64,000 bases of DNA from an uncultured virus (IMG/VR IMGVR_UViG_3300043438_001049) (lineage: Duplodnaviria; Heunggongvirae; Uroviricota; Caudoviricetes). This document shows, one piece after another, positions 5,363 to 31,228 of this stretch (positions within the stretch are counted from its first letter, which is position 1; each line of letters starts with the position of its first letter). The translations under genes and the position numbers were made by a program. Below the pieces are notes generated by a model that was not told the origin of the DNA, ran no database searches, and worked only from the letters and a program-made list of their open reading frames with translations. The stretch is from IMG/VR virus record IMGVR_UViG_3300043438_001049, one strand, 5' to 3'.

Positions 5363-5376
5363 GGAGTTTATTAAAA

Positions 5377-7572: not shown

Positions 7573-7726
7573 ACTATAAGTATATCATAAAATTCAGATT
7601 TATTCAGATTTCTATATTGACACTTTTTGGAATATTTTATTCAGATGTACGATACACACTATACAGAAAATGCACACAAAAAAATAGTGCGCCCATAACA
7701 GACGCACTAGATCTTGGGAAAACCTT

Positions 7727-7909: not shown

Positions 7910-8051
7910 TGTGTTACCTTTCGCATGTGTGCTACTACATTGACAGAAACCTTTTGTAGGTCTGCTACTACCTTGTTCATTTCATCTGCTGAGTTAGCAG
8001 TAAGCCCTGCGCCTAGTAATTGTGCGCCGTCCCATAGTGAGTAAGTGATAG

Positions 8052-8237
8052 TCATTTGATAAGCCCTCTTTTCTTTAGCAATTCTTGAGCCTTAGCGATT
8101 TGCTCAGGTGTAGCGTTGCGATAAGCGTTAATTGTTTCTCTTATCCATGGTGACTTAGCCATAGCCTTTTCATGGGCTTCATGGCGAGCAATAGCCTGCT
8201 CTGCTTGTATTCTATTTAGTGTATTCATCTTGAACAC
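8052..8237 (-). CDS. Hypothetical early protein
   Basis: Downstream of TTGACT-17-TATACT promoter; SD GAAAGG. Confidence 0.5.
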   Translation of the reverse strand: MFKMNTLNRIQAEQAIARHEAHEKAMAKSPWIRETINAYRNATPEQIAKAQELLKKRGLIK

Positions 8238-8251
8238 CTTTCTTTATTTTG

Positions 8252-8483
8252 TATACTGCAAGTATAACAGAGAAATGTCAAAAAGTCAAGTCCTAGCACG
8301 GCGTGTCGCATGTGATGTCCGTCACACGGCACGTGTCAAATCGACACACCGATAACCTCACTATTGTTACGCAATCGTTATAATTCTCCCTAATAATGTG
8401 ACCTACCTCTCATGTGATACACCTCACAATGTCCTTAATGTCCGTTTTGCACCCCTCAATTTGTCAGACCCCCCTGCTATACT
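8252..8483. promoter_or_regulatory. Divergent promoter hub with CRP-type sites, CACGTG and GACAC boxes
   Basis: Minus promoter 8252-8289; TGTGA-N6-TCACA at 8311 and 8413 (near match at 8397); CACGTG 8330; plus promoter TGTCAG-N10-TATACT 8462-8483. Confidence 0.75.
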
Positions 8484-8529
8484 TACAGTATAAAGAAACA
8501 CAAGCGGTAAAGAAATCCGCTAAAGAAAG

Positions 8530-8721
8530 GTGGTCAATATGACTACATTAGATAAAACAACAGTATGCGTAGAGCATAACCCTTATTTCACCGCTATCTC
8601 AGAGGTCGGAGATGTGCAATACACATTCTGCCAAGATTGCGAACAGAATATAGACCGCTTTTGGCTAGACTATGGAATGGAACGACTACCAGAGTGGTCA
8701 GATTGGTCGGTTACTAAATGA
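8530..8721 (+). CDS. Small Cys/His Zn-finger-like early protein
   Basis: CxxH...CxxC. Confidence 0.55.
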   Translation: MVNMTTLDKTTVCVEHNPYFTAISEVGDVQYTFCQDCEQNIDRFWLDYGMERLPEWSDWSVTK

Positions 8722-8918
8722 ACGACACTAATCAATTCTTAGACACTATGCAATTCATAGATGAGCAAGGCTTATGCGCTATGGATAACATCTGCGCTTT
8801 TTGCATAACACTATTTGACGGGTGGAATAGATTTTGCCCAGCATGTAAGGACTACAAGGGCGTTATGGCTCTCCCTGATTTTATCAACACTTATGGAAAG
8901 GAAGGACTCAAGAGATGA
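8718..8918 (+). CDS. Small Zn-ribbon early protein
   Basis: CAFC...CPAC. Confidence 0.55.
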   Translation: MNDTNQFLDTMQFIDEQGLCAMDNICAFCITLFDGWNRFCPACKDYKGVMALPDFINTYGKEGLKR

Positions 8919-9407
8919 GTACCTATGTACCAATTAAATCCGTATGTGGTGCGGTAACTACCACAATCGACCAGTATGACTATGACCTAAACCCTCATGG
9001 TGTTATCTGTTGCGATAACTGTAACTCTATCGTGTTATGCCGTAAGGCTTGGGATTTCCTATACAAGGAGGTTAAGTAATGAATAACTATGAGTTTAATG
9101 TCTATGTAACAGTAGAGGCAGAGTCCTATGATGAGGCCATTGATGTATTCGAGTTTCAATTAAAATACGGAATAAATAAAGATAATGTTTATTGTGCAGA
9201 TATAAAAGATTTGGGGATAAGCGAATGAAAACACTTCAAGAAAAACTTGACGCAGTAGCGTTAGAATTAGAGCCAGTACTTTGGGAATTACTAAATGAAA
9301 TCGAGGATAAATAAATTGTTATTAGTTTTAATTGCAATGATTGTGTTTGGCTTTTTGTATTCACTCTAGTAGTAAAGATCGCATGGATAAATACCCTGCG
9401 ATTTTTG

Positions 9408-9640
9408 CACGTGGCGGTTATCCACAAGGGGTGTGTATAACTAATGTGTTTAAGGTCACACCTTTATTTCCCCCATTTACGGCGTGTCGATTTGACTTTT
9501 TGACATTTCTTTGCTATACTTCTAGTATAACAATTAAATAATGACTAATTAAGCAATGAGCCTTAGCAAATAAATGTGACCAGTATCACAATGAGCCTAA
9601 GCAAATAAGTGCCCAATTTGTCAGACCCCCCTGTTATACT
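9408..9640 (+). promoter_or_regulatory. Cassette header: CACGTG, inverted DnaA-box pair, CRP-type sites, two promoters
   Basis: CACGTG 9408; TTATCCACA 9418; TGTGTATAA 9432; TGTGT-N6-TCACA 9445; TTGACT-17-TATACT 9492-9520; TGTGA-N6-TCACA 9575; TGTCAG-N10-TATACT 9619-9640. Confidence 0.8.
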
Positions 9641-9673
9641 TATATTAACAAACAAACGAAAGGTAGTCACTAA

Positions 9674-9859
9674 ATGACTTACACTGTAAAACTCGAAACC
9701 TATTCAGGTTCCGTAAAAAATATCCCCCTATCAACTAAAGGACAGGTTGCAGATTTTATCTCTAACTATCCTAATGCGTTACCTGTTGGCGTATCTGTTA
9801 AAGTATCTTGCGACATGCTAGGTATTCGTGGAACACTTAGAGGAAAGGCACTTATCTAA
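9674..9859 (+). CDS. Hypothetical early protein
   Basis: SD GAAAGG; downstream of promoter. Confidence 0.55.
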   Translation: MTYTVKLETYSGSVKNIPLSTKGQVADFISNYPNALPVGVSVKVSCDMLGIRGTLRGKALI

Positions 9860-10032
9860 TGATAAACTCAGTACTCTCTATCCCTTGCGAAGAATGCCAC
9901 GCAACAGGTTTAATCTTTTTTGGCGATGAAGATAATTTCGATGTAGAATCTTGCGTATGCGATTTTGGCATGGAGCAAGACCTTAATTTATTCAATACAC
10001 CCGAATCAAACTAAAGAATAGGAAATAAAAAA

Positions 10033-10242
10033 ATGACAGTATCAATCGAACACAACCTAAAGTTTATCACAGAGGTAGACGAGACTCACCCCGTAGGAAT
10101 GCAACTGCTTAGACTTTCAGAGTCAATGCAAATTGTAATGCTTGAAGGAATGCTAAAAGAGTTACTTGCTCCCCGCATTCAACCCGCCATTGATGAATTA
10201 AATGCTAATGGTTCATATGCAATTCTTAAGGTGGTCAAATAA
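10033..10242 (+). CDS. Hypothetical early protein
   Basis: ORF track, SD. Confidence 0.55.
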   Translation: MTVSIEHNLKFITEVDETHPVGMQLLRLSESMQIVMLEGMLKELLAPRIQPAIDELNANGSYAILKVVK

Positions 10243-10427
10243 TGATGACACGCAAAGACTATGTAGCAACCGCAGAAATCCTGCACGGATTTAAAGATTT
10301 AATCGGTGACCAATTAGTTTTTGAAGATTTGGTCGATGAGTTTTCGCTAATGTTTGAAAGCGATAACGAAAGATTTGACCATGTAAAGTTTTTCAATGCT
10401 TGCCATAAGGAAATGGAGTTAGTGTAA
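10242..10427 (+). CDS. Hypothetical early protein (MTRKDY family)
   Basis: MTRKDY...DNERFD..KF..AC pattern common in phage early genes. Confidence 0.6.
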   Translation: MMTRKDYVATAEILHGFKDLIGDQLVFEDLVDEFSLMFESDNERFDHVKFFNACHKEMELV

Positions 10428-10723
10428 TGACAACAACAACAACAACGACAACTACATCAACAAACCCAGCAACAGTTACAACTACTGCAACTGCAACTCT
10501 CTTGCCATGGAATGGATTTGCAATTTCGGGCTTTGTTCTTTCACTTACTATTTGGCCAATGGCTTTTATCTTTAGTCCAATAGCACTTAGCCAATTTAAA
10601 AGAAATGGTGAAAACTGGAACAGAGGTAAAGGTCTTGCAACTGCAGGTTTAATTATTGCAATAGTGCAAGCAGTTTTTACTGTTTTGTTTTGGGATTATC
10701 TTCTTAGCGATATGGAATACTAA
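10427..10723 (+). CDS. DUF4190-like membrane protein with poly-Thr N-terminus
   Basis: NGFAISGFVLSL...IALSQ..R.GE..RGKGLATAGLII. Confidence 0.65.
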   Translation: MTTTTTTTTTSTNPATVTTTATATLLPWNGFAISGFVLSLTIWPMAFIFSPIALSQFKRNGENWNRGKGLATAGLIIAIVQAVFTVLFWDYLLSDMEY

Positions 10724-10737
10724 TCCTATAATAAATT

Positions 10738-10763
10738 ATCCTGAGCATGATTTAAAACTGCTC
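10738..10763 (+). ncRNA. Pseudoknot motif copy 1
   Basis: ATC-C-TGAGCA-T-GAT-TTAAAAC-TGCTC. Confidence 0.6.
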
Positions 10764-10784
10764 GATCTTTTAACAAAAAAAATG

Positions 10785-10967
10785 CACGTGTGACTTATCC
10801 ACAGGCTGTGTATAACTTTAAGTAGCATGTGATTTTTTTCACACTCTCTGAGCGTCTCATTATTTAAGACTACTCGCTAGTAGGTTGATAATTTATGACT
10901 AATAGGCTAGACTTACATAGTAAGAAAAAATAAATAAGCAAGATTTGTCAGACCCCTATGGTAGGAT
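10785..10967 (+). promoter_or_regulatory. Cassette header: CACGTG, inverted DnaA-box pair, CRP-type site, TGTCAG promoter
   Basis: CACGTG 10785; TTATCCACA 10795; TGTGTATAA 10807; TGTGA-N6-TCACA 10828; TGTCAG-N10-TAGGAT 10946-10967. Confidence 0.8.
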
Positions 10968-11001
10968 AAAGTTAATAACAAAAAAAGAAAGAGGTTGCCC
11001 A

Positions 11002-11208
11002 ATGGCTACTAAACTATACACAATACAGGATTTACTAATTGGTAAAAACTATCGTTCCCGTAATCGTCACTTTGAGGGAGAAATTATTTCTGCCTCTCCC
11101 CGCCCTGCAATTTGGTATGGAGAAAATACCGAAGCATATGTCATTGAAATCTATGACCGCACTTTGCGAAGTAAGTTTGCAACAGTAGCAGTAAAGGTTG
11201 GTGAGTAA
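11002..11208 (+). CDS. Hypothetical early protein
   Basis: ATG at 11002 with SD GAGG. Confidence 0.55.
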   Translation: MATKLYTIQDLLIGKNYRSRNRHFEGEIISASPRPAIWYGENTEAYVIEIYDRTLRSKFATVAVKVGE

Positions 11209-11429
11209 TGAATAACGAATACCTATACGCAGTAACAGTATCGTATGATAGTAACCCCGTTCATTGGACGGGTCGTTACTCTGATGCACTAAGTGCAGTT
11301 AATGCTTTCAACGAAATTGTTGATTGGGGATTTGCTGATGAATATTCAACAGTTAATTTATCTGAACCAAGTGGAAAGATGCACACCCGCACTTTCTATC
11401 GTGAAGGACGAAAGGTCGTAACAAAATAA
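11208..11429 (+). CDS. Hypothetical early protein
   Basis: Coupled ORF. Confidence 0.55.
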   Translation: MNNEYLYAVTVSYDSNPVHWTGRYSDALSAVNAFNEIVDWGFADEYSTVNLSEPSGKMHTRTFYREGRKVVTK

Positions 11430-11698
11430 TGGGAAGCGTAACTGCACTCGGTATTCAAGATACCGTACTTGATTTAGAAACACAATTAGCCTATCACTTA
11501 CAGGGTAATCACTATCCTCCAGTACCGCTATCTATGGTGCAACCTTGCATAGATGCTATTGACGCATACTATGATGAGGACTACCGCAGAGAGATAGATT
11601 TGCCTCAAGGAGTGTTGTGGCGTGGGCAGGTTACTGCACCAGCAGATGCAATAATTGAGCAACACCATTTATCTTTTTGGCTACCAGAGGAGGACTAA
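11429..11698 (+). CDS. Hypothetical early protein (NHYPPVP family)
   Basis: HLQGNHYPPVP...IIEQHHL. Confidence 0.6.
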   Translation: MGSVTALGIQDTVLDLETQLAYHLQGNHYPPVPLSMVQPCIDAIDAYYDEDYRREIDLPQGVLWRGQVTAPADAIIEQHHLSFWLPEED

Positions 11699-11932
11699 AT
11701 GTCTGATACAATAAACAATATGGAACTTAGATTTGCTGATAACTTAAAACCATCTCAACTTATAGAAGGCGATCTAATTAAGGTTGATGATGAATATGTA
11801 ACTATTGAAACCATTACAGAAAATGAAGATGGATTTAATATTTATACTAGAAATGATTTTAATGAAGAGGGTCACATTTATTTATTTGATGATGAAACTA
11901 TTGAGTGGTATGTATTCTTTGAAGAAGACTAA
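11699..11932 (+). CDS. Hypothetical acidic protein
   Basis: Adjacent ORF. Confidence 0.5.
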   Translation: MSDTINNMELRFADNLKPSQLIEGDLIKVDDEYVTIETITENEDGFNIYTRNDFNEEGHIYLFDDETIEWYVFFEED

Positions 11933-11971
11933 TCACTAAAGTATTTTTATGTGCTTCCCCGCATAAAAATG

Positions 11972-12040
11972 CACGTGGCGCCTGTGTGAGATTTATCACA
12001 TTTTAAGAATTTGACATTTATTCCCCCTGTATGCTAAGAT
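11972..12040 (+). promoter_or_regulatory. Cassette header: CACGTG, CRP-type site, TTGACA-18-TAAGAT promoter
   Basis: CACGTG 11972; TGTGAGATTTATCACA 11985-12000. Confidence 0.75.
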
Positions 12041-12353
12041 TAATTATGAAGAAAAATCCAGAGGAATTACGCAGGCTTATGGAATTACGCCGTAGCAATG
12101 CGGCCTCTGCCGTGCCCTCTAAGAAATCCTATAACCGTAGGAAATGTCAGTCCGAAATGCTACAATTAAAACAACAAGAAGGAGAATAGCCCCATGGGAA
12201 ATATCGCAGATGAATTCTATGATGAATACTATGCAACAACCTGCCCTGAATGTAAAGAAAATGCGGTAGACGCATATGAAGAAAAATGCACTCATTGTTT
12301 ACTAGAAGAAATGTCCGCAACCTATAACGAAGACATTGCTCTAGAAATGAGTC

Positions 12354-13094
12354 TTGGCCTTGACTACTAATACACTTAAACTAAAACGCTCTAAAGATAG
12401 AAAGGTTGCTAATGCCGTCACACCTAATGGAAAACAAGCAAGTATCGCAAATACCTTTGGCCTCCCTGCTGGAAAGGCTTTCTCGTGTCCTGGTGCCACG
12501 AGTGTATGTGAATCCGTATGCTATGCAGGAAAACTCGAAAAGATCTTCCCAACCGTAAAAGTTAACCTGCTACACAATTGGGCCCTGCTAAAAGACGCAG
12601 ACTATTTAACTATGCTTAATCTCATTGCTGAGATGATTGCTGATTTCAAGGCAGACTGTATCAAGAAAGACGCTCCTATGCTATTCCGTATCCACTGGGA
12701 CGGAGATTTCTTTAACGATACTTATACTACCGCATGGTCTGATGTAATCAAACTTAATCCTGATGTACAATTTTGGGTATACACTCGTGTTAAGTCTGCA
12801 GCACTAATCTTAAAAGACATTGATAATCTTAGTCTTTATTTTTCTGCTGATAGTGAGAATGTAAAAACTGCCGTTGATTTAAAAATTAACAGTGGTGTAC
12901 GCATGGCATACCTTGCTAAGAATTTTGCAATTGGTAAGGCAGACATAAAAGAAATGATTGGTAAGCCTGCTGCTAAGTGTCCTGAGAATAATAAACAGAT
13001 TCCACTTATCTCAACAAATGGAAGCGCTTGCGTTTCTTGCTCACTTTGTGTATACTCTAAGAGTGACATAATTTTTTCATCGAGTAAGAAATGA
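12354..13094 (+). CDS. Phage gp88-like Cys-rich protein
   Basis: FGLPAG..CPGA...C...CYA...FRIHWDGDF...FWVYTR...CP...C..C..C. Confidence 0.7.
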   Translation: MALTTNTLKLKRSKDRKVANAVTPNGKQASIANTFGLPAGKAFSCPGATSVCESVCYAGKLEKIFPTVKVNLLHNWALLKDADYLTMLNLIAEMIADFKADCIKKDAPMLFRIHWDGDFFNDTYTTAWSDVIKLNPDVQFWVYTRVKSAALILKDIDNLSLYFSADSENVKTAVDLKINSGVRMAYLAKNFAIGKADIKEMIGKPAAKCPENNKQIPLISTNGSACVSCSLCVYSKSDIIFSSSKK

Positions 13095-13333
13095 GATAAC
13101 ATGCGTAGTACTCAAGTTATACTTTTATTTTGGTTGTTGCTTCTTTTATTTTTCCACCAATAAAATAAAAGGGGCCACGTCGCCAAGATCGAGGTTTGTC
13201 AAGTTTATGATAGGCTTTTAAGATGTGATTAAGGACACACCGCAAATCCTCCGCTGGATTGGTATTTATGACATTTTTATGCTAAAATTATACTATAAGC
13301 AATTAACCCCCACAACAGAAAGGCAAGACCCAA

Positions 13334-13504
13334 ATGACACTACACGGATACACTTACCAAATTGGTGATTTATTCACAACAAGCAAGACAGGCGTTACAG
13401 GTCGTATTGCAGGATTTACACCAATGTCTAATAAGGTTACTAGAGTTAGTTTAATCCTAGCCAATGGCGCACAACGCCTTGCTATGGTCAAGACCTCTAA
13501 GTAA
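13334..13504 (+). CDS. Small SH3/KOW-like protein (paralog 1)
   Basis: 56 aa, below ORF-track cutoff: MTLHGYTYQIGDLFTTSKTGVTGRIAGFTPMSNKVTRVSL... Confidence 0.6.
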   Translation: MTLHGYTYQIGDLFTTSKTGVTGRIAGFTPMSNKVTRVSLILANGAQRLAMVKTSK

Positions 13505-13610
13505 TCTCACAATGTGAGAAATGTTAAGTTTCGATTTGACATTTTTATCTGCAAAATGTTATACTTAGGTATAACCAAATAACAACCCCTAAACAGAAAA
13601 GAGAAAAACA

Positions 13611-13775
13611 ATGTCAGTAGCAACAGCAACATACAAGGTAGGCGATACCTACACAACACAGAAGTCAAAAGTTAGCGGAGTAATTCAAGAAATTAACCCA
13701 CTACCAAATGGTAATGTGCGAGTTAAGTTAGATGTAGATGGAAAGCCACGCTACACAACTTGGACGGCTAAGTAA
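13611..13775 (+). CDS. Small SH3/KOW-like protein (paralog 2)
   Basis: 54 aa: MSVATATYKVGDTYTTQKSKVSGVIQEINPLPNGNVRVKL... Confidence 0.6.
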   Translation: MSVATATYKVGDTYTTQKSKVSGVIQEINPLPNGNVRVKLDVDGKPRYTTWTAK

Positions 13776-13786
13776 TACAAAACTAA

Positions 13787-13817
13787 CGACCTGAGTATGT
13801 CGGTGCAAAACTACTCA
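13787..13817 (+). ncRNA. Pseudoknot motif copy 2
   Basis: CGAC-C-TGAGTA-T-GTCG-GTGCAAAAC-TACTCA. Confidence 0.6.
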
Positions 13818-13860
13818 ACCACCCCCTAACAAATACCCCACAAAAGAAAAGAGAAAACAA

Positions 13861-14283
13861 ATGGCTAGAGGAAAAGCAATTTCGGTTAAAATCGCAACAC
13901 CAAAAATCATCAAGGCACTAGAGCAATCACTTGCTAAGTTAGAAGCAGACTACTCATCACAAGAAGCAAATGAAGCAAAGTACGAGAAGGCTCGCAAAGT
14001 ATGGCAGAAAGAAATTATTGACTATGCCGTAGCAAACATCAAGAAGGCAGAAAACTTCCGTACTAACTATCGTCATTGGTCAAACACTCTTAACATTGAC
14101 TTTGACTTAACAGTTACAGAAAAAGACATGCCTAAAGAGCCTGAGAAGGACTTTGTTACAATGCACCAACACTCATACAATGAGCAGAAAGCAGAAATCT
14201 CTAACGCAATCCGTATTCTGAAAATGACAGATGAGGAAACAGTAAATACTAGCACCTACAATGCGGTTGCTCAATACCTATAA
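13861..14283 (+). CDS. Hypothetical early protein
   Basis: 140-aa ORF with A-rich leader. Confidence 0.65.
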   Translation: MARGKAISVKIATPKIIKALEQSLAKLEADYSSQEANEAKYEKARKVWQKEIIDYAVANIKKAENFRTNYRHWSNTLNIDFDLTVTEKDMPKEPEKDFVTMHQHSYNEQKAEISNAIRILKMTDEETVNTSTYNAVAQYL

Positions 14284-14390
14284 ATGAAATTGGGGGAGGC
14301 GTAAAAACCTCCCTCAACTTTCGCCAGGCTGATTAGGGCGATAATAGAAATACTATAGAGCAAGGCTCCTGCAGGCCTAAAGAAGCAGAC

Positions 14391-14417
14391 ATCCTGAGCA
14401 CGATCCAAAAAGGCTCA
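14391..14417 (+). ncRNA. Pseudoknot motif copy 3
   Basis: ATC-C-TGAGCA-C-GAT-CCAAAAA-GGCTCA. Confidence 0.5.
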
Positions 14418-14491
14418 CCCTTAAGGGGACTTGACAAATGTCAGTGGCGCCCTGTACAATTAAATTAAACCAACTACAGAAAGAGGCCCCC

Positions 14492-14920
14492 ATGGACCAA
14501 ACAGAAGAATCAGTAACAGTAATACCAAACACAACGCAAGAATTCCTTTTATCTCAGATTAAAATAAAAGATGAGCGTATTGCTCAACTTGAAGAGCACA
14601 CTCAAAAGGTAACCCAGCGCTCTTATTCCGATTCAGCAGACCGTAACCGTATGGTTGAGGGAATGAAGGACTGGACCCTTAGTGAATTAAGTAATGAAGA
14701 CATCACTGAGTCTCAAGCAGAACAAATTGCTGAAATCATGGGCTTTGAATTAACAACAGAGTTTGAATTGGAAGTTACAGTTCTTTATTCAGTTACTGTT
14801 AATGCTCGTGATGAAGAGTCTGCACAGAATGTAATTCACGATATTGATTTTGATACCGTGCAATATGACTCAGATAATATTTCTTGGTTGTCTTCATCCG
14901 TTGATAGAATAGATATTTAG
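14492..14920 (+). CDS. Hypothetical acidic early protein
   Basis: ATG 14492 with SD GAGG. Confidence 0.6.
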   Translation: MDQTEESVTVIPNTTQEFLLSQIKIKDERIAQLEEHTQKVTQRSYSDSADRNRMVEGMKDWTLSELSNEDITESQAEQIAEIMGFELTTEFELEVTVLYSVTVNARDEESAQNVIHDIDFDTVQYDSDNISWLSSSVDRIDI

Positions 14921-14968
14921 TAGGGGGCTACTAATACAGACATATCGAATGTCTATAAACTAGGTAAG

Positions 14969-14997
14969 GGCCCTAAGCATGGCCATGTAAACTGCTT
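14969..14997 (+). ncRNA. Pseudoknot motif copy 4
   Basis: GGCC-C-TAAGCA-T-GGCC-ATGTAAAC-TGCTT followed by T-tract. Confidence 0.55.
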
Positions 14998-15018
14998 TTT
15001 CTTTTTTTACAAAATTTG

Positions 15019-15138
15019 CACGTGGGGTTTATCCACAGGTTTATCCACAGGCTGTGATTAAGATCACCTTTAAGAAATGTCCGAATTGCCCCATGTATAC
15101 TTATACGATTTGACTTTGTCAGTCCACCCATGTATACT
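15019..15138 (+). promoter_or_regulatory. Cassette header: CACGTG, tandem DnaA boxes, CRP-like site, promoter
   Basis: CACGTG 15019; TTATCCACA 15029 and 15041; TGTGA-N6-TCACC 15053; TTGACT-17-TATACT with TGTCAG 15110-15138. Confidence 0.8.
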
Positions 15139-15168
15139 TAGATTAACAACAACAGAAAAGAGAAACTC

Positions 15169-16185
15169 ATGGCACATGACCTAGAAACACAAAACGGCGT
15201 TGCATCATTTGCATCATTCCGTGAACCTGCTTGGCATGGATTGGGTACTGTATTCACAGAAGAAAAAACTACATCAGAAATGTTGGCGCTTGCTAATCTT
15301 TCTAATTGGAATGTTCGTCTTGAAGATTTAACAGTACCGACCCACTTATCATCAGATAAGAATTATCAATATGTATTGCGTACTAACCCTACAGATACAA
15401 CACAGACCGACATTCTTGGTGTCGTTGGTGAGCGTTACCATGTAATGCAGAATGAAGATTTATTCTCATTCGGTGACAACATTCTAGACGGCGGAGGCCG
15501 TTGGGAGACTGCTGGCTCAATTAAGGGTGGCCGTGTTGTGTTCGGTGCGTTGGCACTAGAGCGTGAGACTGTCCTAGACCCTAGCGGTGTTGCCGATAAG
15601 GTAAAGACTTATTTACTTATCAACACATCACATGATGGCTCAATCGCTATTCAAGCAAGCATCACACCTGTTCGTGTTGTGTGCGCTAACACTCTCAATC
15701 TTGCTCTTGGCTCAATCAAGAAAAAGAATGGCGTCAAGCAATCATTCAAGATTCGTCATACACAGACTGCAAGCGGTAAGGTTGCCGTTGCTCGTGAGAC
15801 TCTTGGAATGGCTAACAAGTACATGGACGCATTTGATATTATGGCTAAGGCTATGATTGAAAAAGAAGTCAATGCTAAGCAATTCAATGATATTGTATTG
15901 GCTGCATATGCAAAACCAGAAACAGATGCTAAGGGTTCGCTAAAGAAGTGGGAAAATAAAATTGATTCAATCAATGATATTTACACAGGCGAGTTTAATG
16001 GTATGATTGCTGGTAGTGCTTGGGGTGCTTTCAATGCACTAACCGAACGCCTTGACTGGTATCGTTCTGCTCGTGGTGGTTCTAACGAATCAATCCTTGC
16101 ATCAGCATCAGGATTTGACCCTGCTATCAATGCAGAAAAGAATCGTTTGCTAAAAGTTGTACAAAATGTAATGCAACTCGCATAA
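15169..16185 (+). CDS. DUF932 / TIGR03299 phage-plasmid-like protein
   Basis: REPAWHGLG...WETAGSIKGG...NTSHDGS...TPVRVVCANT...KIRHT. Confidence 0.85.
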   Translation: MAHDLETQNGVASFASFREPAWHGLGTVFTEEKTTSEMLALANLSNWNVRLEDLTVPTHLSSDKNYQYVLRTNPTDTTQTDILGVVGERYHVMQNEDLFSFGDNILDGGGRWETAGSIKGGRVVFGALALERETVLDPSGVADKVKTYLLINTSHDGSIAIQASITPVRVVCANTLNLALGSIKKKNGVKQSFKIRHTQTASGKVAVARETLGMANKYMDAFDIMAKAMIEKEVNAKQFNDIVLAAYAKPETDAKGSLKKWENKIDSINDIYTGEFNGMIAGSAWGAFNALTERLDWYRSARGGSNESILASASGFDPAINAEKNRLLKVVQNVMQLA

Positions 16186-16191
16186 CAAAAA

Positions 16192-16219
16192 AATCCTAAG
16201 CATGATTCTAAACTGCTTG
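16192..16219 (+). ncRNA. Pseudoknot motif copy 5
   Basis: AATC-C-TAAGCA-T-GATT-CTAAAC-TGCTTG. Confidence 0.6.
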
Positions 16220-16224
16220 CAATG

Positions 16225-16314
16225 TTTAATGGTCAGGCGCAGGTAAGAGTGCTAAGGGCTCGGAGGGTTGCGCGGATACAAACCCCCGAAATTAATAGTC
16301 ACACCGCCATTAAA
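16225..16314 (+). ncRNA. Candidate structured RNA upstream of tRNA-Asp
   Basis: TTTAATGGT/GCCATTAAA closing stem with internal GC-rich hairpins. Confidence 0.4.
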
Positions 16315-16321
16315 CTTAATT

Positions 16322-16395
16322 GGAGTGTTAGCATAGTTGGTTAATGCGCTACCCTGTCACGGTAGAGATCACGGGTTCAAGTCCCGTACACTTCG
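16322..16395 (+). tRNA. tRNA-Asp (GTC)
   Basis: GGAGTGT/ACACTTC acceptor, CTACC-CTGTCAC-GGTAG anticodon arm, GGTTCAAGTCC T-arm. Confidence 0.92.
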
Positions 16396-16863
16396 CAAAA
16401 TCGCCACGTGTGGAAATTAGTACAAATCGGACATAAAAATGTCAAATAAAATAAACTTTACGATAGTCAAACCTTTTCCCCAAAAATGTCAAACCTAAAA
16501 ATCTTTACGATAGAGTTGACATTTCCCCCAATCTCTGCGATAATTAATACATGACCCAAACAATGAGAACGATTGACGAATTAGTCAATGAGATGTACAT
16601 GGACAATGAGCCACATCTCGAATACATGGAGAATATGAACGGTGGGGATTGTGATTGTAACATCCACACTACCTTGAACACAATAGTCAAATACTGGTGG
16701 GATGAGGAGAACTAATGTTAGGCTATGAACTATCAGACTTAGATATGATGATTGCTAATGTAAACATTGCCTCTAAACAATTAAACAACTCAGGTATTGC
16801 TAAAGGTTTGGAAGAAGTTTCTTCATTCCTCCAGGGACTATGGGCAGAAGGGTACTTTGACTA

Positions 16864-17151
16864 ATGTGGAGCAAGTATACATTTGTTTGTGACCCTGATG
16901 AGTGTGACGCTCTTCTTGAGTTTACCGCTAGAGATGGCTTTGGCTTTCCCCTGGGATCTGTAGAGATGAAATGCCCATGTGGACGCTGGATGGCTTACAT
17001 TAGCATTGAAGAGGTTTGGTCCCCCATCATTGATACTATAGAGATGCTTAATGATTTTAAGAAGCAAGCAGGCATAGCCATAGACTCTTTGGATGTGATG
17101 AAGGTCACACCCCCACAACTTGTAAAAATCAACACCAACCCGTATAATTAA
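16864..17151 (+). CDS. Small Cys-rich protein
   Basis: CDPDEC...CPC. Confidence 0.5.
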   Translation: MWSKYTFVCDPDECDALLEFTARDGFGFPLGSVEMKCPCGRWMAYISIEEVWSPIIDTIEMLNDFKKQAGIAIDSLDVMKVTPPQLVKINTNPYN

Positions 17152-17299
17152 TATATGGACCTAAACACATTCCGAGAATATATCCGATTGCATGCCATAT
17201 CCCTTGAACAGGATTTGGAAAACGAGGACGGTGCTGATAGCATTGTTCCTTATCTTGAAGGAGCCATTAATGTATCCCGCCACTATTTGGAGGTAACCA

Positions 17300-17587
17300 A
17301 TGAACGATAACACTACCCTTGACCCATACCTAATGAAACTAGTAGAACTTGGTATGGACGGAGCAGATATCCTGCACGGTCACCTTAAAGTTTTAATGGT
17401 TGAGGCAGAGAAGCAATTAGACCTGTGCATTGAAGCAGAGGAGTATTCAGAAGAAGCAATGGACTCAATGGCTCGTACAGAGGCTTCAGGCTATTTTGAC
17501 GCACTGTGTGAGGTCTATGCCCTAACTTATGCTATCGCTTTTGCCAAGGAAGAAGTAAAGAACCGCAAGGAGATTCTTGGTGAATAA
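17300..17587 (+). CDS. Hypothetical protein
   Basis: SD GGAGG. Confidence 0.6.
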   Translation: MNDNTTLDPYLMKLVELGMDGADILHGHLKVLMVEAEKQLDLCIEAEEYSEEAMDSMARTEASGYFDALCEVYALTYAIAFAKEEVKNRKEILGE

Positions 17588-18020
17588 CGAACGCTTTATA
17601 GAAATGACTGAGGAAGAATGGTTTGAGACTTATAAGCCTGTTAAGAATCATCTTGAAACCACATCTTCATTTGACGGACACATGTTTGAGACATATGGCT
17701 CAGAGGTAGAGTTTGTTAAGTCTATCCCTGAAGACCGTATCTGGATGCTTGGAGACGGTGACGACGGTGGTATGTACATCTGGAACGGCTGGGGATTTGT
17801 AAATAGAATAGGATACTTTGTCACTGAGGTACCCTGCCCACCTGACACGACTATTCAGGTCCAAGTAGGTATACCTTGGTATTACTGTGAGGCCTGTGAC
17901 TCAGAATGGGAAGACCCTGATAATCTTATTAGAGATGCCTTCCAAGAAGAGGATTTGGAAAAATGCCCTAACTGTGCTACCATTGAAGAAATGACCCTAG
18001 TAGGATTGGATAACAAATGA
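17577..18020 (+). CDS. Hypothetical protein with C-terminal Zn ribbon
   Basis: FETYG...FVNRIGYFVTE; CEAC...CPNC. Confidence 0.6.
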   Translation: MVNNERFIEMTEEEWFETYKPVKNHLETTSSFDGHMFETYGSEVEFVKSIPEDRIWMLGDGDDGGMYIWNGWGFVNRIGYFVTEVPCPPDTTIQVQVGIPWYYCEACDSEWEDPDNLIRDAFQEEDLEKCPNCATIEEMTLVGLDNK

Positions 18021-18355
18021 CAAAATATGTAATAGATGAACTTACCTTAGTAGGAAGTTTTGCTGTTGACTCAGGCCAAGCAATGGTGGGCGACCCATGC
18101 TACCTTGACCAATGGAAAACAAATGAGGGTGAGCCATGGGATATGGAAGGCAAGATAGGAGAATACTCTTATCAAGGTGCTAGTGCTACAACGATTAACT
18201 CTAACGCAGGGGAGTTAGGAATTGGTAGCGCAATTGTATTTAACACAGGCTATGGTGACGGTTACTATCCTGTTTATATAAAGACAAATCAAGACGGACG
18301 AGTTGTAAAGGTAGTAATTGACTTCGAAGGCGACCTAGATGAGGAGCAAGACTAA
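18017..18355 (+). CDS. DUF4241-like protein
   Basis: VDSGQ..GDPCY...TGYGDGYYPVY. Confidence 0.6.
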   Translation: MTKYVIDELTLVGSFAVDSGQAMVGDPCYLDQWKTNEGEPWDMEGKIGEYSYQGASATTINSNAGELGIGSAIVFNTGYGDGYYPVYIKTNQDGRVVKVVIDFEGDLDEEQD

Positions 18356-18720
18356 TGGGTGCACGGATCAACTATGTATTTAAAGATTCATTAACTAAGC
18401 CTTCAGTTGTACTTTATAGTCACTGGGGTGAGACCGAATGGCAGCGGGACCTAGCAATGGCCCTGCAGCATTCAAAGCCTAGGTGGATAGACGCCTCATA
18501 TGGTACCCGCATGATGATTAGTTATCTTACGCAAGACTCAGTCTTGGATGAGACAGGGTTTGGTATCTATGCTATTAATAACGGTGACTATGAATTTTGG
18601 GACACCACTGTAATCATCGACTTCAATACTAAGACTATTAATGAACTGGGCTCAGACATCCATGTTGATTGGGACCTATTCATAGCAGCCTATCGACCAG
18701 TTTTAATGGAGCAAATCTAG
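18355..18720 (+). CDS. Hypothetical protein
   Basis: MGAR...LYSHWG motif; coupled. Confidence 0.6.
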   Translation: MGARINYVFKDSLTKPSVVLYSHWGETEWQRDLAMALQHSKPRWIDASYGTRMMISYLTQDSVLDETGFGIYAINNGDYEFWDTTVIIDFNTKTINELGSDIHVDWDLFIAAYRPVLMEQI

Positions 18721-18812
18721 GGAGTGGGTCCTCTAGATTATAGGGTGGAAGGGGCAGGCGTGGGGCTTGCTCTTTCCCCCACTTTTTGGTACAATAGATA
18801 CAAGGGAGAACT

Positions 18813-19019
18813 ATGCGTATAAGCAGACGGGTCACAGAGGAAGAAAAGGTAGCCATGAAGTTAGGCAACATGGTATCTGACCTCCGAGTTGATTTGGAAT
18901 TAGTCGGGGAATACCTAGCAAAGTCTCAGCCCTATGTCGTGTATAATAGATTACAGACAATAGCAGAGTCAGCCAAAGAAACTAAGGAAGGTACAAATTA
19001 TGCCATTAACGGATTTTGA
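18813..19019 (+). CDS. Hypothetical protein
   Basis: SD GGGAG. Confidence 0.55.
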   Translation: MRISRRVTEEEKVAMKLGNMVSDLRVDLELVGEYLAKSQPYVVYNRLQTIAESAKETKEGTNYAINGF

Positions 19020-19260
19020 TAGCAGGGCTTTAATTCTTGGACAGTTATGGGTCAATTATAAAAGTGATGACGAATGGACAGACTTCTTCGCTTATAGCGA
19101 TTTAGGTTTGCCACTTGCTTTCTCTTTTGCTGAAGGCATTGTCAATCACACACCATCACTTGAACAATACATAAACGAGACATGGGATTTGTTTATTGAA
19201 GGTTTGGGTATTGAAGATGAAGGTTTTGCACGACTGGAAGATATCTTCACAGAAGAGTAA
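19000..19260 (+). CDS. Hypothetical acidic protein
   Basis: YSDLGLPLA motif; SD. Confidence 0.6.
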   Translation: MPLTDFDSRALILGQLWVNYKSDDEWTDFFAYSDLGLPLAFSFAEGIVNHTPSLEQYINETWDLFIEGLGIEDEGFARLEDIFTEE

Positions 19261-19262
19261 CT

Positions 19263-19961
19263 GTGCCCCGAAAGGGCACGTGCATTATCATTCAATAACA
19301 AACCATCAAACCTTATAGCCAAAAGACATTACGAACCTCCAAATCTTTCCCCCTCCAGAACATTACGATCCAAACCTTTGTTTCCCCAAACTAGGTGTAT
19401 ACTTTATATATGAGTCCAAGACATTTTGCAAACCTTTATAAGCAAACCTCCCATCGCCATGATAGCCCAAGTGATGGTGATATATTTAATAAAGACTTTG
19501 GTGCTATATGTGGTATGTTGTATAGTGTTGTAACTCTTAAGGCTTTCTTTCCTAAGTCCCCCGCCCCAGCGATGACTGATAATCCTATCACTGACGGCAA
19601 CGGCGGGGATCAAGAAGAACAAAACAAACCCCTATAGAATAACAAACCATTATCTCCTGGTTTCTTTAAATAACATAAAGGTTTGTTAAAAAAAGATTAC
19701 GATATGTGCAAATTTCTCCCTGGTTTCTGGGGATTTTTTATAGGGTTTTAAGGTTTGACAAACCATTATATCTGTGGTACCATCCGCTGCGAGATAGTTT
19801 GTAAGGTTTGGGGTTTTAAGGTTTGAGGTTTGGGGCCCCCAAGACATTACGAACGCATCGTTAAAAGCGCCCCATTCTCCACTATCCTCCACTTCACTCC
19901 ACTTCTAGGGTGTCTAATAAGATAATCAGTAAGATTAATCTGTGGATAAACCTGTGGATAA
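19263..19961. repeat. Repeat-rich cis element (CAAACC/GGTTTG, ATTACGA, CTCCACT repeats) ending in two DnaA boxes
   Basis: CAAACC x8, GGTTTG x5, ATTACGA x4, CTCCACT x3, TGTGGATAA 19941 and 19953. Confidence 0.7.
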
Positions 19962-20512: not shown

Positions 20513-20565
20513 ACAAATATTGTACCATAATTGACCTGTGGATAACTCTATGATATGATAGATAT

Positions 20566-30490: not shown

Positions 30491-31228
30491 ATGAAGTTTC
30501 ATTGGATGCTAAATGGGTCATACTCAACTAGCAATATATTAAAAACAGTTGTTGAAGGTCTTGGCAGTAATAGATACGAGTCAATACTTTTAACATTTCA
30601 ATTAGATCAAAATGAACCAATGGTTTCAGCAATGTTTTTAACAAACAATTTTCCAAATCAAAGGTTTATGATAGCAGTTAGACCCTACACCATTTCTTCC
30701 AGACATTTATCCATGATAGCAAAAACATTTTATGACTACTTTAATAATAAACTAATTATTAATTTTGTTTCTGGAACATATGATAATGAGTATGAACTTT
30801 TTACAAATAAAACTTCTACACGTGAAGAACGTAAAGATGAATTATCTGGGTACATCAAATCATTTGTTGAAGATTTAAAGGGTACACTATATTCTGATAT
30901 TGCGATAAGTGGTGCAAGTGATAAGTTAATCAGTTTATGCTCTGAGTTCTCTGCAATAAACATAGCACTCATTCAAGACTTAGACAAACTAAACAAAGAC
31001 AATAATATAATGCTTAGAGTATCAATAGGTATTGATGTAGATAAGTCTCAAATGACTACAGATAGAGAATTTAATAACTCTATATGTGGTACAGAAGACT
31101 ATATTATTAATAAAATAAAAGAACTTGAGGCAATGGGGATAACCGACATATTGATTTCAAATACATATGAAAACATTACAGAAATAGATAAGACAAATGC
31201 TTTAGTTGACAGATACAAGTCGCTATAG
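30491..31228 (+). CDS. Luciferase-like (LLM) flavin-dependent monooxygenase-like protein
   Basis: FMIAVRPYTIS...IINFVSG...ISGAS...ICGT...I.EL..MGITDI. Confidence 0.7.
   Translation: MKFHWMLNGSYSTSNILKTVVEGLGSNRYESILLTFQLDQNEPMVSAMFLTNNFPNQRFMIAVRPYTISSRHLSMIAKTFYDYFNNKLIINFVSGTYDNEYELFTNKTSTREERKDELSGYIKSFVEDLKGTLYSDIAISGASDKLISLCSEFSAINIALIQDLDKLNKDNNIMLRVSIGIDVDKSQMTTDREFNNSICGTEDYIINKIKELEAMGITDILISNTYENITEIDKTNALVDRYKSL

What the first reader, a model, noticed from the sequence alone, without database searches (positions are those of the whole stretch)
8299..19282. Early region built from cassettes delimited by CACGTG palindromes with clustered host-regulator boxes
Seen: the palindrome CACGTG sits in the major intergenic gaps of the early region at 8330, 9408, 10785, 11972, 13176 (variant CACGTC), 15019, 16405 and 19277, mostly 1.1-1.8 kb apart. 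It usually comes directly after the preceding terminator hairpin, pseudoknot or tRNA and before a block of DnaA/CRP-type boxes and a strong promoter. I noticed only one other CACGTG in the window (~30818, in a CDS). The recurring grammar is 3' end element, CACGTG, factor boxes, promoter, 1-5 small ORFs. Inference: CACGTG is a dedicated cis site. It could be a recombination or nicking site for shuffling early-gene cassettes (integron-like), a protein-anchoring site used during DNA entry, or a methylation target. I know of no described phage system with this architecture.
Basis: partly seen in the sequence, partly recalled or inferred. Interest (0 to 1): 0.88.

Follow-up and report, generated by a model that had tools for sequence, protein, structure and literature searches.

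The report
Lineage-specific restriction-like hexamers bounding phage early operons
A lake phage marks the start of each early gene unit with one six-letter, restriction-site-like word that it keeps almost nowhere else in its genome, and close relatives use a different word at the same spots, which points to an undescribed sequence-reading step in early infection.

Summary
CACGTG occurs 8 times in the window; 7 copies, plus one CACGTC variant, sit in intergenic gaps of the early region at 8.3-19.3 kb. Each follows a terminator, structured element or tRNA and precedes DnaA/CRP-type boxes and a promoter.

Relatives change the picture. In 80 related IMG/VR loci and 17 larger contigs the same gap positions carry a different hexamer in different lineages: CACGTG, CCTAGG, CCCGGG, GCCGGC, GACGTC, GGCGCC, TTCGAA, CTCGGG/CCCGAG and others. 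One word fills nearly all gaps of a genome. Of 142 copies of a contig's own word, 131 lie in that one array.

These genomes purge short palindromes. CCGG is absent from 66 of 80 loci. In the other 14 nearly every copy checked lies at a boundary-word position.

The region is homologous to the 10.7-kb terminal repeat of Streptomyces phage Samisti12. Cassette order is largely conserved, so integron-like shuffling is not supported.

Best reading (confidence 0.35): the words are addresses for a restriction-type sequence reader that cuts, nicks or binds the first-injected repeat between transcription units. No phage gene co-varying with the word, and no phage methyltransferase or restriction enzyme, was found. 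Five literature searches found no description of this.

The parts
8238..19394 (+). Early (pre-early-like) domain: about 8 transcription units of small ORFs, all on the + strand, each bounded upstream by the word
   Evidence: ORF layout. ORFs are mostly without family. Homologous to the terminal repeat of Samisti12. About 2x contig depth.
8330..8335 (.). Boundary word 1 (CACGTG), at the divergent junction with the minus-strand genes
9408..9413 (.). Boundary word 2 (CACGTG), directly after a terminator T-run and 4 nt before a DnaA box
   Evidence: The same column holds GCCGGC, CCTAGG, CCCGGG or TCCGGC in relatives.
10785..10790 (.). Boundary word 3 (CACGTG), after a pseudoknot-like element and an A-run
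11972..11977 (.). Boundary word 4 (CACGTG), after a hairpin and 7 nt before a perfect TGTGA-N6-TCACA box. A co-occurring strain reads CACGTC here.
   Evidence: variant G>C at 11977 (table 3)
13176..13181 (.). Degenerate boundary word (CACGTC). Other CACGTG lineages have CACGTG in the corresponding gap.
   Evidence: L030 7987, L040 8015, L062 8092
15019..15024 (.). Boundary word 5 (CACGTG), followed by two direct DnaA boxes and a CRP-like box, upstream of the DUF932 gene
   Evidence: alignment of 64 distinct upstream regions
16405..16410 (.). Boundary word 6 (CACGTG), 9 nt after tRNA-Asp
   Evidence: the post-tRNA site carries each lineage's own word
19277..19282 (.). Boundary word 7 (CACGTG), overlapping the 3' arm of a GC hairpin at the end of the last early unit
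30819..30824 (.). The only CACGTG outside the array, inside ORF 30491-31228; not part of the system
9418..9440 (.). Convergent pair of DnaA-type boxes (TTATCCACA, then TGTGTATAA)
10795..10815 (.). Convergent pair of DnaA-type boxes
15029..15049 (+). Two direct DnaA-type boxes (TTATCCACA x2)
11985..12000 (.). Perfect CRP-type box TGTGA-N6-TCACA. Similar boxes start at 8311, 8413, 9445, 9575, 10828, 13224, 15053 and 17094.
16322..16396 (+). tRNA-Asp serving as the 3' element of the DUF932 unit
10738..10763 (+). Pseudoknot-like 3' element (..CCTGAGCA..TGATTT..AAAACTGCTC). Similar copies lie at about 14391-14417 and 14968-14997.
   Evidence: apparent compensatory changes in relatives seen by eye; no Rfam family
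12354..13094 (+). GP88-family gene (PF17338), conserved marker of the domain
   Evidence: 49% identity to Samisti12 gp008
15169..16185 (+). DUF932-family gene (PF06067), conserved marker used to fetch relatives
   Evidence: 53% identity to Samisti12 gp002

Best explanation
The hexamers are cis-acting addresses for a restriction-enzyme-type sequence reader with a 6-bp, mostly CpG-centred palindromic or degenerate-palindromic specificity that differs between lineages. The phage removes the word, and often its 4-bp core, from the rest of its genome. It keeps exactly one copy at the upstream edge of each pre-early transcription unit in its long terminal repeat, the DNA that enters the cell first. 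The action I think most likely is programmed site-specific cutting or nicking of the injected repeat between transcription units. This resembles the published but unproven proposal that T5's A1 protein is a restriction-like nuclease that destroys host DNA, spares a phage genome lacking its sites, and cuts a palindrome in the terminal repeat.

Shown: the position, lineage-specific identity, genome-wide exclusion and restriction-like character of the words, and homology of the region to a terminal repeat.

For: 1. The same alignment column in at least three homologous gaps holds a different hexamer in different lineages while the flanks stay alignable.

2. One word per genome fills 5-10 gaps. 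Across 18 contigs (1.45 Mb), 131 of 142 copies of a contig's own word lie in one 7-13.6 kb array. This is, with G005's 5 'outside' copies re-assigned by me because a 3632-bp gap exceeded my 3600-bp cut-off. It is supported.

3. The words look like Type II recognition sites, including degenerate palindromes that appear in both orientations: CTCGGG/CCCGAG (CYCGRG) and AGCGCC (RGCGCY). The enzyme names I attach to these are recalled, not taken from a call.

4. Exclusion is lineage-specific. CACGTG has 1 true out-of-array copy in the 4 in-class contigs. One search counted 3 with a fixed 12-kb box and reported P=0.025; 2 of those are G004 array members. The expectation from the other 14 contigs is 8.8, which gives P about 0.0015 by my own Poisson arithmetic for 1 observed. 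CCTAGG has 6 against 15.6 expected (P=0.005).

5. CCGG is 0 in 66 of 80 loci. It occurs 3-8 times in the 14 loci whose word contains CCGG. In G006 and the 40 kb fetched of G007 the 8 CCGG equal the 8 words, and in G005 all 8 lie at the word position of gaps.

6. The early region shows extra depletion of GATC in 8 of the 9 contigs tested (window 10 against 35 expected). TGCA or AGCT is also depleted there in some lineages. This is what T5-like phages show for DNA exposed before anti-restriction is in place (PMC10644984, abstract and passages read).

7. The homologous DUF932 and GP88 genes lie inside the 10,666-bp direct terminal repeat of Samisti12. Exact-match contigs over 7000-19,9xx have about 1.5-2.8 times the depth of those beyond 19,934 in 4 runs.

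8. The cutting model exists in print as a hypothesis for T5 (bioRxiv 10.1101/866236, sections 4.5, 4.6, 4.9 and 4.10 read).
Against: - No nuclease or methyltransferase family was found in 124 window ORFs, in 47 ORFs of the rest of G004, or in 6 contigs G001-G006 for PF00145 and 5 contigs G001-G005 for PF01555 and PF02086.
- There is no T5 A1 or A2 homologue (best tblastn E = 5).
- No gene co-varies with the word within +/-10 kb or across 18 contigs. The best leads failed. The 68-aa protein is almost the same in a CCCGGG and an AGCGCC lineage. The 58-aa protein is absent from one CACGTG contig and present in other classes.
- Complete cutting at 8 sites in both repeat copies would delete the early genes from the replicating genome, so extra control has to be assumed.
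- Eleven own-word copies do lie outside the arrays, 5 of them in G002, so the word is not absolutely lethal elsewhere.
- For CTCGGG, exclusion is not lineage-specific: all lineages have few copies.
- No direct evidence of cutting, nicking or methylation could be obtained. All 23 runs found were stored as contigs, not reads.
Confidence: 0.35

Rival explanations
1. Operator or boundary sites for a phage-encoded DNA-binding protein that does not cut. It would act as a shut-off repressor or a roadblock/insulator that stops read-through from one early unit into the next. Its specificity would diversify between lineages as repressor-operator pairs do in heteroimmune temperate phages.
For: The word sits directly after the 3' element and a median of 6 nt before the first factor box. 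Boxes lie downstream in 70% of 128 words and upstream in 15%. Occasional doublets spaced 8-11 bp suggest cooperative binding. Orientation does not matter. Samisti12 carries a longer, operator-like palindrome (GTCSGGNCCSGAC) at the same place. The exclusion elsewhere is incomplete, as expected for a binder.
Against: No co-varying protein was found. Contiguous 6-bp palindromes and degenerate sites such as CYCGRG are typical of restriction-modification enzymes rather than repressors (recalled). This reading does not explain why words are built from sequences that are otherwise forbidden, such as CCGG. The distance from word to the -35 hexamer varies from about 39 to 111 bp.
Confidence: 0.25
2. 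The words are recognition sites of the host strain's own restriction-modification systems, kept as an epigenetic mark. The host methyltransferase methylates them in the producing cell, and the methylation state (full, hemi or none after replication) times early transcription or DNA processing. Dam sites do this at the P1 pac site and the Mu mom promoter (recalled).
For: The phage genomes carry no methyltransferase and show extreme, lineage-specific site avoidance, so host restriction-modification pressure is strong. The word class is almost randomly distributed on the DUF932 tree: 20 changes on 35 tips, minimum possible 10, shuffled mean 22.6. That fits fast-changing, mobile host systems. No phage-encoded reader was found.
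Against: Unmethylated words in first-injected DNA would be cut on any host switch, which is a heavy cost. Methylation would protect sites anywhere, so it does not explain why the word is removed elsewhere. A separate reader of the mark is still needed. Neither hosts nor methylation could be examined here.
Confidence: 0.15
3. Recombination or crossover sites that shuffle early-gene cassettes, integron-like or PeSL-like.
For: The units are self-contained, with promoter and terminator, like PeSL cassettes (PMC2839356, abstract read). One cassette, the GP88 unit, is transposed in L060/L042 with its left breakpoint 8 nt after the word. Contig joints in four lake runs have ends inside gaps, for example 10763>16317.
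Against: Gap order and spacing are conserved across word classes. Homology blocks cross words, for example L030 from 11425 to 16221 across three words. Most breakpoints lie at gene ends. The joints lie 22-88 nt from the words, have sides of about 30 nt, and may be repeat artefacts. No recombinase was found. Shuffling does not explain the lineage-specific change of the word.
Confidence: 0.08
4. No function of its own. The hexamer would be a neutral piece of a repeated promoter-regulatory module, homogenised within a genome by gene conversion, or simply tolerated in a region that escapes restriction.
For: Three window gaps share 'word, N4, TTATCCACA'. The phages encode a RecA-like recombinase and endonuclease VII.
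Against: Flanks differ between the gaps of one genome (tRNA, hairpin, pseudoknot, CRP box or DnaA box next to the word), so conversion tracts of exactly 6 bp would be needed. At least 13 different words, nearly all restriction-like and GC-rich, occupy one column. Words hold sequences that are purged everywhere else.
Confidence: 0.05

Closest known systems
T5-type first-step-transfer (pre-early) terminal repeat, including Davison's 'A1 is a restriction enzyme' model
   Same: A long terminal repeat full of small host-takeover genes. DnaA boxes in its non-coding parts. Restriction sites matter only in this first-injected DNA (PMC10644984). The proposal that a restriction-like nuclease spares a site-free phage genome but cuts a palindrome in the repeat (10.1101/866236).
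   Different: No A1 or A2 homologue. T5's DnaA boxes form one 8-box cluster at the injection stop signal; here they are spread over the unit boundaries. T5's repeat-specific 6-mers (CCGCGC, GCGCCC and others) were not placed unit by unit. No lineage-specific word swapping is described for T5. The T5 model itself is untested.
PeSL (promoter-early stem-loop) regulatory cassettes of T4-type phages
   Same: Small ORFs of unknown function, each bracketed by a sigma-70-like promoter and a terminator stem-loop, in a plastic early region (PMC2839356, abstract).
   Different: PeSLs have no separate short word between terminator and promoter and no lineage-specific specificity. They act through homologous recombination between PeSLs and make mini-circles. 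Here cassette order is largely conserved. The phage is not T4-like: it has a DnaE-type polymerase and is related to Stanwilliamsviridae.
Restriction-site avoidance in phage genomes
   Same: Complete loss of short palindromes. In the window AGCT is 0 of 214 expected, CCGG 0 of 70 and CGCG 3 of 70. In G003 TCGA is 0 of 369 expected. Avoidance is a known anti-restriction strategy (PMC6286503, listing and start of abstract seen).
   Different: Avoidance removes sites. Here the avoided sequence is kept on purpose at one fixed place per early unit and is swapped as a set between lineages.
Terminal repeat of Streptomyces phage Samisti12 (Stanwilliamsviridae)
   Same: Homologous DUF932 and GP88 genes in the same order, units separated by 100-190-nt gaps, and a GC-rich palindrome directly after each terminator.
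   Different: The genome has 53% GC. The element is a longer, degenerate palindrome (GTCSGGNCCSGAC, often with GGGCCC at its core). Its 6-mers are not excluded from the rest of the 16 kb examined (GGGCCC: 7 gaps, 19 copies in total).
Repressor-operator immunity modules of temperate phages
   Same: Cis sites repeated in a genome whose sequence differs between close relatives.
   Different: No co-varying DNA-binding gene was found. The sites are 6 bp long and restriction-like. The genomes examined showed no integrase or repressor in the scans made.

Membership tests
PeSL cassettes (T4-type phages) | Strong sigma-70-like early promoter joined to a terminator stem-loop, flanking small ORFs | tested here: inconclusive
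   Terminator-like sites are enriched, 20 against 9.7 +/- 3.7. Promoter-like matches are not significantly enriched, 46 against 38.1 +/- 6.6, although 10-11 of 12 matches lie in several gaps.
PeSL cassettes (T4-type phages) | Insertions, deletions and replacements between relatives have their breakpoints at the repeated element; mini-circles form | tested here: not met
   Homology blocks cross the words and most breakpoints lie at gene ends. Contig joints end in gaps but 22-88 nt from the word, and are weak.
T5-type pre-early terminal repeat | The region is a long direct terminal repeat | tested here: inconclusive
   Its homologue in Samisti12 is a 10,666-bp terminal repeat. Contig depth is about 1.5-2.8x up to about 19.9 kb in 4 runs. 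No reads were available to map ends, and the left boundary was not seen.
T5-type pre-early terminal repeat | A1 and A2 proteins | tested here: not met
   tblastn of T5 A1, A2 and dmp against 18 contigs: best E = 5.
T5-type pre-early terminal repeat | First-injected DNA is poorer in restriction sites than the rest of the genome | tested here: met
   GATC is about 1.6- to 3.5-fold depleted in the early region in 8 of 9 contigs (G006 not: 33 vs 34.4). TGCA or AGCT is also depleted there in some.
Type II restriction-modification recognition site | Short (4-8 bp) palindrome or degenerate palindrome | tested here: met
   CACGTG, CCTAGG, CCCGGG, GCCGGC, GACGTC, GGCGCC, TTCGAA, CYCGRG-type and RGCGCY-type. 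A few are asymmetric: CCGCCC, TCGACC, TCCGGC.
Type II restriction-modification recognition site | A cognate methyltransferase or endonuclease gene | tested here: not met
   None in the phage. Host genomes are unknown and were not tested.
Type II restriction-modification recognition site | Methylation or cleavage at the site | not testable with these tools
   All 23 runs found are stored as contigs.
Integron cassette array | Tyrosine-recombinase integrase beside the array; attC sites of about 60-140 bp with imperfect inverted repeats; promoterless cassettes | tested here: not met
   No integrase family. The site is 6 bp. Each unit has its own promoter-like site and factor boxes. The integron features listed are recalled.
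parS/ParB centromere (core CACGTG, recalled) | 16-bp palindrome around the core | tested here: not met
   Flanks of the 7 sites are not palindromic, and other lineages use unrelated words.
Repressor-operator immunity module | A DNA-binding protein gene that co-varies with the operator sequence | tested here: not met
   No such gene within +/-10 kb (35 classed lineages) or in 18 contigs. Two leads were rejected. Power is limited for genes far from the array.

The most novel reading that the evidence does not exclude
The phage has domesticated restriction sites. It keeps the recognition sequence of a restriction-type nuclease, its host's or its own, only at the borders of its pre-early units. 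After entry the first-injected terminal repeat is then diced or nicked into autonomous promoter-to-terminator cassettes. This would act as a nuclease-driven developmental switch or decoy, and its address is rewritten whenever the nuclease specificity changes. Under this reading the word would also report each phage lineage's current host restriction repertoire.
Probability: 0.25. Interest if true: 0.95.

Novelty: categorically new. Interest (0 to 1): 0.86.

Why it matters
Phages are known to delete restriction sites. A phage that deletes a site everywhere except at one fixed place per early operon, and rewrites all those places together when lineages diverge, implies positive selection for being recognised by a restriction-type reader.

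The word would also be a sequence-only read-out of which restriction system a wild, uncultured phage faces.

Either way the result gives a clear cis element to test in a large, abundant group of lake phages (354 related contigs). It also points to a cultured relative, Samisti12 and its kin, in which to do the tests.

Tried and rejected
- **Near-identity search.** A search of the early region against 50,697 phage records found nothing. The distant search found only short hits in the GP88 gene.
- **Phage-encoded methyltransferase or nuclease.** None was found. A weak 'methyltransferase' PHROG hit at 23048-23764 (E = 3.7e-6) is absent from G004, which has the same word. The endonuclease VII/HNH gene at 6976-7572 is likewise absent from G004.
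- **Co-variation screens.** Identity and presence screens found no convincing gene. Cluster 18 (18813-19019) and the 58-aa ORF 12194-12370 were followed up and rejected. The top hit among 18 contigs, 49569-50564, rests on 3 same-class pairs in 7 genomes and lies beside a carbamoyltransferase; I did not pursue it.
- **T5 proteins.** No A1 or A2 homologue.
- **A second word in one genome.** CCTAGG in L044 and L019 is at chance level and not at the gaps.
- **Host identity.** The AhpC-like gene gives 59-68% identity to many Burkholderiales and to a few small MAG contigs labelled Actinomycetota or Acidimicrobiaceae, which is not decisive. The Streptomyces-phage kinship and CHAP lysin suggest an actinobacterial host, but this is unproven.
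- **Reads.** No run with raw reads exists, so no ends, nicks or strand data could be obtained. Parts of the stretch without contig cover are not evidence.
- **Rfam.** Only the tRNA matched.
- **My automatic counts.** The gap caller undercounts words in gaps and a fixed 12-kb box miscounts array ends. I rely on the cluster-based count.
- **parS, Chi-like and E-box readings.** Considered from memory and dropped. The flanks are not conserved and the word changes between near relatives.

Full report
**1. The observation**

The single outlier at 30819 lies inside an ORF, and a CACGTC variant sits at 13176. The total count alone is not unusual: 3.99 +/- 2.06 are expected, and 7 of 100 shuffles reach 8.

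The placement is what matters. Seven copies fall in the roughly 1.9 kb of intergenic gaps of the 8.2-19.4 kb region. By my own binomial arithmetic the chance of that is about 2e-10. All 8 ACGT tetramers between 8000 and 19500 are these sites. In an unbiased scan CACGTG ties for the highest count among 6-mers that are frequent in the early region and nearly absent outside it.

The companion elements are real:
- 10 of 12 exact DnaA-type boxes and 10 of 12 CRP-type boxes in the window lie in this region.
- tRNA-Asp ends 9 nt before the 16405 site.
- Terminator-like hairpins are enriched, 20 against 9.7 +/- 3.7. Promoter-like matches are not significantly enriched.

**2. What kind of genome this is**

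The window encodes a DnaE-type polymerase that is 54% identical to those of Streptomyces phages. It also encodes a RecA-like protein, a primase, a DnaB-like helicase, a terminase, a CHAP lysin and many 2OG-Fe(II) oxygenases. No close cultured relative is in the phage collection searched.

IMG/VR holds 354 contigs encoding a close relative of the DUF932 protein (15169-16185), and I took the best 80 loci. Complete relatives are 105-118 kb, and two assemble as circles with 123- and 127-bp end overlaps. Nineteen of 23 coded public runs, listed as lake water metagenomes, hold at least half of the sampled words of the early region.

**3. The key result: the word changes, the place does not**

I aligned the 260 nt upstream of the DUF932 gene from 64 distinct sequences. 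At the column where this window has CACGTG, other lineages have CCTAGG, TTCGAA, GACGTC, CCGG-containing words, CCCGGG, GGCGCC, CTCGGG and others, while the flanks remain alignable.

The same holds directly after tRNA-Asp and after the 'GATCGCAG...CTGCGATTTTT' terminator. There, for example, L040 (CACGTG) and L053 (GCCGGC) have near-identical flanks.

Within a genome the same word fills 5-10 gaps. Asymmetric words occur in either orientation: CTCGGG/CCCGAG, TCCGGC/GCCGGA, CCGCCC/GGGCGG and TCGACC/GGTCGA. Several fit degenerate palindromes such as CYCGRG and RGCGCY.

The loci fall into 57 groups at 97% or more DUF932 nucleotide identity. No group holds two definite word classes. On a DUF932 tree of 35 classed lineages with 11 classes, parsimony needs 20 changes. 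The minimum possible is 10 and the shuffled mean is 22.6, so the word turns over about as fast as this marker can resolve, or the marker itself recombines.

**4. The word is nearly confined to the array**

I fetched 17 larger contigs, which with the window give 18 contigs and 1.45 Mb. Copies of each contig's own word that lie in the array, out of all copies in the contig:

| Contig | In array / all copies |
|---|---|
| window | 7 of 8 |
| G004 | 8 of 8 |
| G012 | 8 of 8 |
| G013 | 9 of 9 |
| G003 | 9 of 9 |
| G010 | 10 of 10 |
| G018 | 9 of 9 |
| G019 | 9 of 9 |
| G017 | 6 of 7 |
| G014 | 5 of 5 |
| G015 | 5 of 6 |
| G002 | 7 of 12 |
| G011 | 6 of 6 |
| G020 | 8 of 10 |
| G005 | 6 of 6 |
| G006 | 8 of 8 |
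| G007 (40 kb part) | 8 of 8 |
| G021 | 3 of 4 |

The total is 131 of 142. G005's split array was corrected by me.

The exclusion is partly lineage-specific:
- CACGTG has 1 true out-of-array copy in the 4 in-class contigs, against 8.8 expected from the rate in the other 14. My own Poisson arithmetic gives P about 0.0015. One search's fixed-box count of 3 gave P=0.025.
- CCTAGG has 6 against 15.6 expected (P=0.005).
- TTCGAA has 2 against 5.7 (P=0.07).
- CTCGGG is rare in all lineages, so nothing can be said for it.

**5. Link to restriction-site avoidance**

These genomes purge short palindromes almost completely. In the window AGCT is 0 of 214 expected, CCGG 0 of 70 and CGCG 3 of 70. In G003 TCGA is 0 of 369, CCGG 0 of 131 and CGCG 0 of 131. 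Lineages differ in whether AGCT, TCGA or TGCA is the one removed.

CCGG is absent from 66 of 80 loci. In the 14 loci whose word contains CCGG it occurs 3-8 times. In G006 and in the 40 kb fetched of G007 the 8 CCGG are exactly the 8 words, and in G005 all 8 lie at the word position of gaps. CTAG is depleted in CCTAGG-class loci, and TCGA is depleted in TCGA-word loci. So the words are built from sequences the genome otherwise forbids.

No DNA methyltransferase family (PF00145, PF01555, PF02086) was found in up to 6 contigs. No nuclease or methyltransferase family turned up in Pfam scans of 124 window ORFs or of 47 ORFs from the rest of G004.

**6. The region is probably the first-injected terminal repeat**

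Streptomyces phage Samisti12 has homologues of the DUF932 gene (53% identity) and the GP88 gene (49% identity). They are in the same order, in units separated by 100-190-nt gaps. The whole block is duplicated at both ends of the record, with an offset of 123,044 in a 133,710-bp genome, which gives a 10,666-bp direct repeat.

In four lake runs, exact-match contigs covering 7000 to about 19,9xx have about 1.5-2.8 times the depth of those from 19,934 on. This is only a hint. The depths are per contig and the strains are mixed.

The early region is also 1.6- to 3.5-fold poorer in GATC than the rest of the genome in 8 of 9 contigs tested. In some lineages it is poorer in TGCA or AGCT too. T5-like phages are hit by restriction systems only through sites in the first-step-transfer repeat (PMC10644984, abstract and passages). 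An NAR 2025 paper makes the same point for Autographiviridae (PMC12455610, listing and start of abstract only).

**7. Grammar**

Over 128 array words in 17 contigs:
- A DnaA or CRP-type box follows within 120 nt in 70% and precedes in 15%.
- The median distance to the first box is 6 nt.
- An A/T run of at least 6 lies within the 14 nt upstream in 50%.
- The upstream 50 nt fold to -8 kcal/mol or lower in 59%.

The word is therefore the first element of each unit's regulatory region, in the non-transcribed spacer after the previous unit's 3' end.

**8. Shuffling is not supported**

Gap positions are similar across word classes. Homology blocks between the window and ten relatives often cross the words, and most breaks lie at gene ends. 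One cassette transposition (L060/L042) begins 8 nt after a word. Contig joints in the lake runs end inside gaps but not at the words, and they are weak.

**9.

Association screens found no gene whose identity or presence tracks the word. They covered genes within +/-10 kb in 35 classed lineages and 2,055 ORFs from 18 contigs. Two leads were rejected. T5 A1 and A2 have no homologue. The early ORFs are almost all without family.

**10. Interpretation**

Any explanation must account for the following:
- one word per unit boundary;
- a set-wise change of word between near relatives;
- the restriction-like character of the words;
- exclusion from the rest of the genome;
- the use of otherwise forbidden sequence;
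- indifference to orientation.

A restriction-type reader acting on the first-injected repeat fits best. A closely similar idea has been argued for T5 without experimental proof: that A1 is a restriction-like nuclease which spares a site-free phage genome and cuts a palindrome in the repeat (10.1101/866236, sections 4.5, 4.6, 4.9 and 4.10 read).

I give this 0.35. The rivals are a non-cutting operator or roadblock protein (0.25), a host-methylation timer (0.15), recombination sites (0.08) and neutral homogenisation (0.05).

The main weaknesses are that no enzyme has been identified, no physical evidence of cutting or modification exists, and complete cutting would destroy the early region.

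**11. Novelty**

PeSL cassettes (PMC2839356, abstract read) share the promoter-terminator cassette design but not the word. T5 shares the pre-early repeat and the DnaA boxes but not the per-unit word or its lineage-specific swapping. Five full-text searches found no description of restriction-like sites kept at fixed early-operon boundaries. The enzyme names I attach to the words (PmlI, AvrII, SmaI, NaeI, AatII, NarI, BstBI, AvaI, HaeII) are recalled, not checked against any call.

Noticed in passing
window 10738-10763, about 14391-14417, about 14968-14997; homologous places in L001-L080: A roughly 26-30-nt pseudoknot-like element (..CCTGAGCA-TGTTT-TAAAAC-TGCTC..) ends several early units just before the word. 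In relatives both putative stems appear to change in a compensatory way (AAAC/GTTT, GGAC/GTCC, GGGCC/GGCC; GAGCA/TGCTC, AAGCA/TGCTT, GGCCA/TGGCC). This was seen by eye in the alignment. No Rfam family matches.
   Followed up: partly
whole window and 17 related contigs: Near-total, lineage-specific loss of 4-bp palindromes. CCGG and CGCG are absent everywhere. Either AGCT or TCGA is absent, or TGCA is depleted (mainly in the early region), and CATG is depleted in a few lineages. TGCA is about twice over-represented in most genomes.
   Followed up: partly
L240 (Samisti12, NC_042012.1) 600-10016: In this cultured relative's terminal repeat, 12 of 15 gaps contain CGGACA/TGTCCG. Many have a terminator hairpin followed at once by a palindrome of the form GTCSGGNCCSGAC(A). 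GATC is 0 of 62 expected in the 16 kb examined. The TGTCCG/CGGACA motif also recurs in the window's gaps, for example at 8315, 8438, 15077 and 16428.
   Followed up: partly
window 11977 and 11980: In three of four lake runs about a third to 60% of the contig depth reads C instead of G at 11977, which turns this word into CACGTC, and has an extra C after 11980. This suggests a co-occurring strain with a variant word at this gap (tables 3 and 4).
   Followed up: no
window 19941-19961 and 20537-20545: Three more exact DnaA-type boxes (TGTGGATAA, minus orientation) lie just beyond the last word, near the place where contig depth halves (about 19.7-19.9 kb). This is a possible repeat boundary or origin-like site.
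   Followed up: no
L238 (T5 NC_005859) 1-10219: T5's left terminal repeat holds GC-rich 6-mers that are almost absent from the next 52 kb: CCGCGC 8 against 1, AGCGCG 7 against 1, GCGCCC 7 against 0, CAGCGC 6 against 0. The record's own notes give the nick consensus as Pu-pGCGC. I did not map where in the repeat they lie.
   Followed up: no
window 20985-41414: An accessory region with at least eight 2OG-Fe(II)/JmjC-type oxygenases, two glutathione-peroxidase-like genes, an AhpC-type peroxiredoxin with a CMD-family partner, a CDGSH-JmjC fusion, and two more tRNAs (Met, Arg). Many of these genes are absent from the close relative G004.
   Followed up: no
window 12354-13094: The GP88-family protein has conserved Cys motifs (CPGAT.VCE.VCYAGK near the N-terminus and AC..C.LC near the C-terminus) that are shared with Samisti12 gp008. 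Its function is unknown.
   Followed up: no
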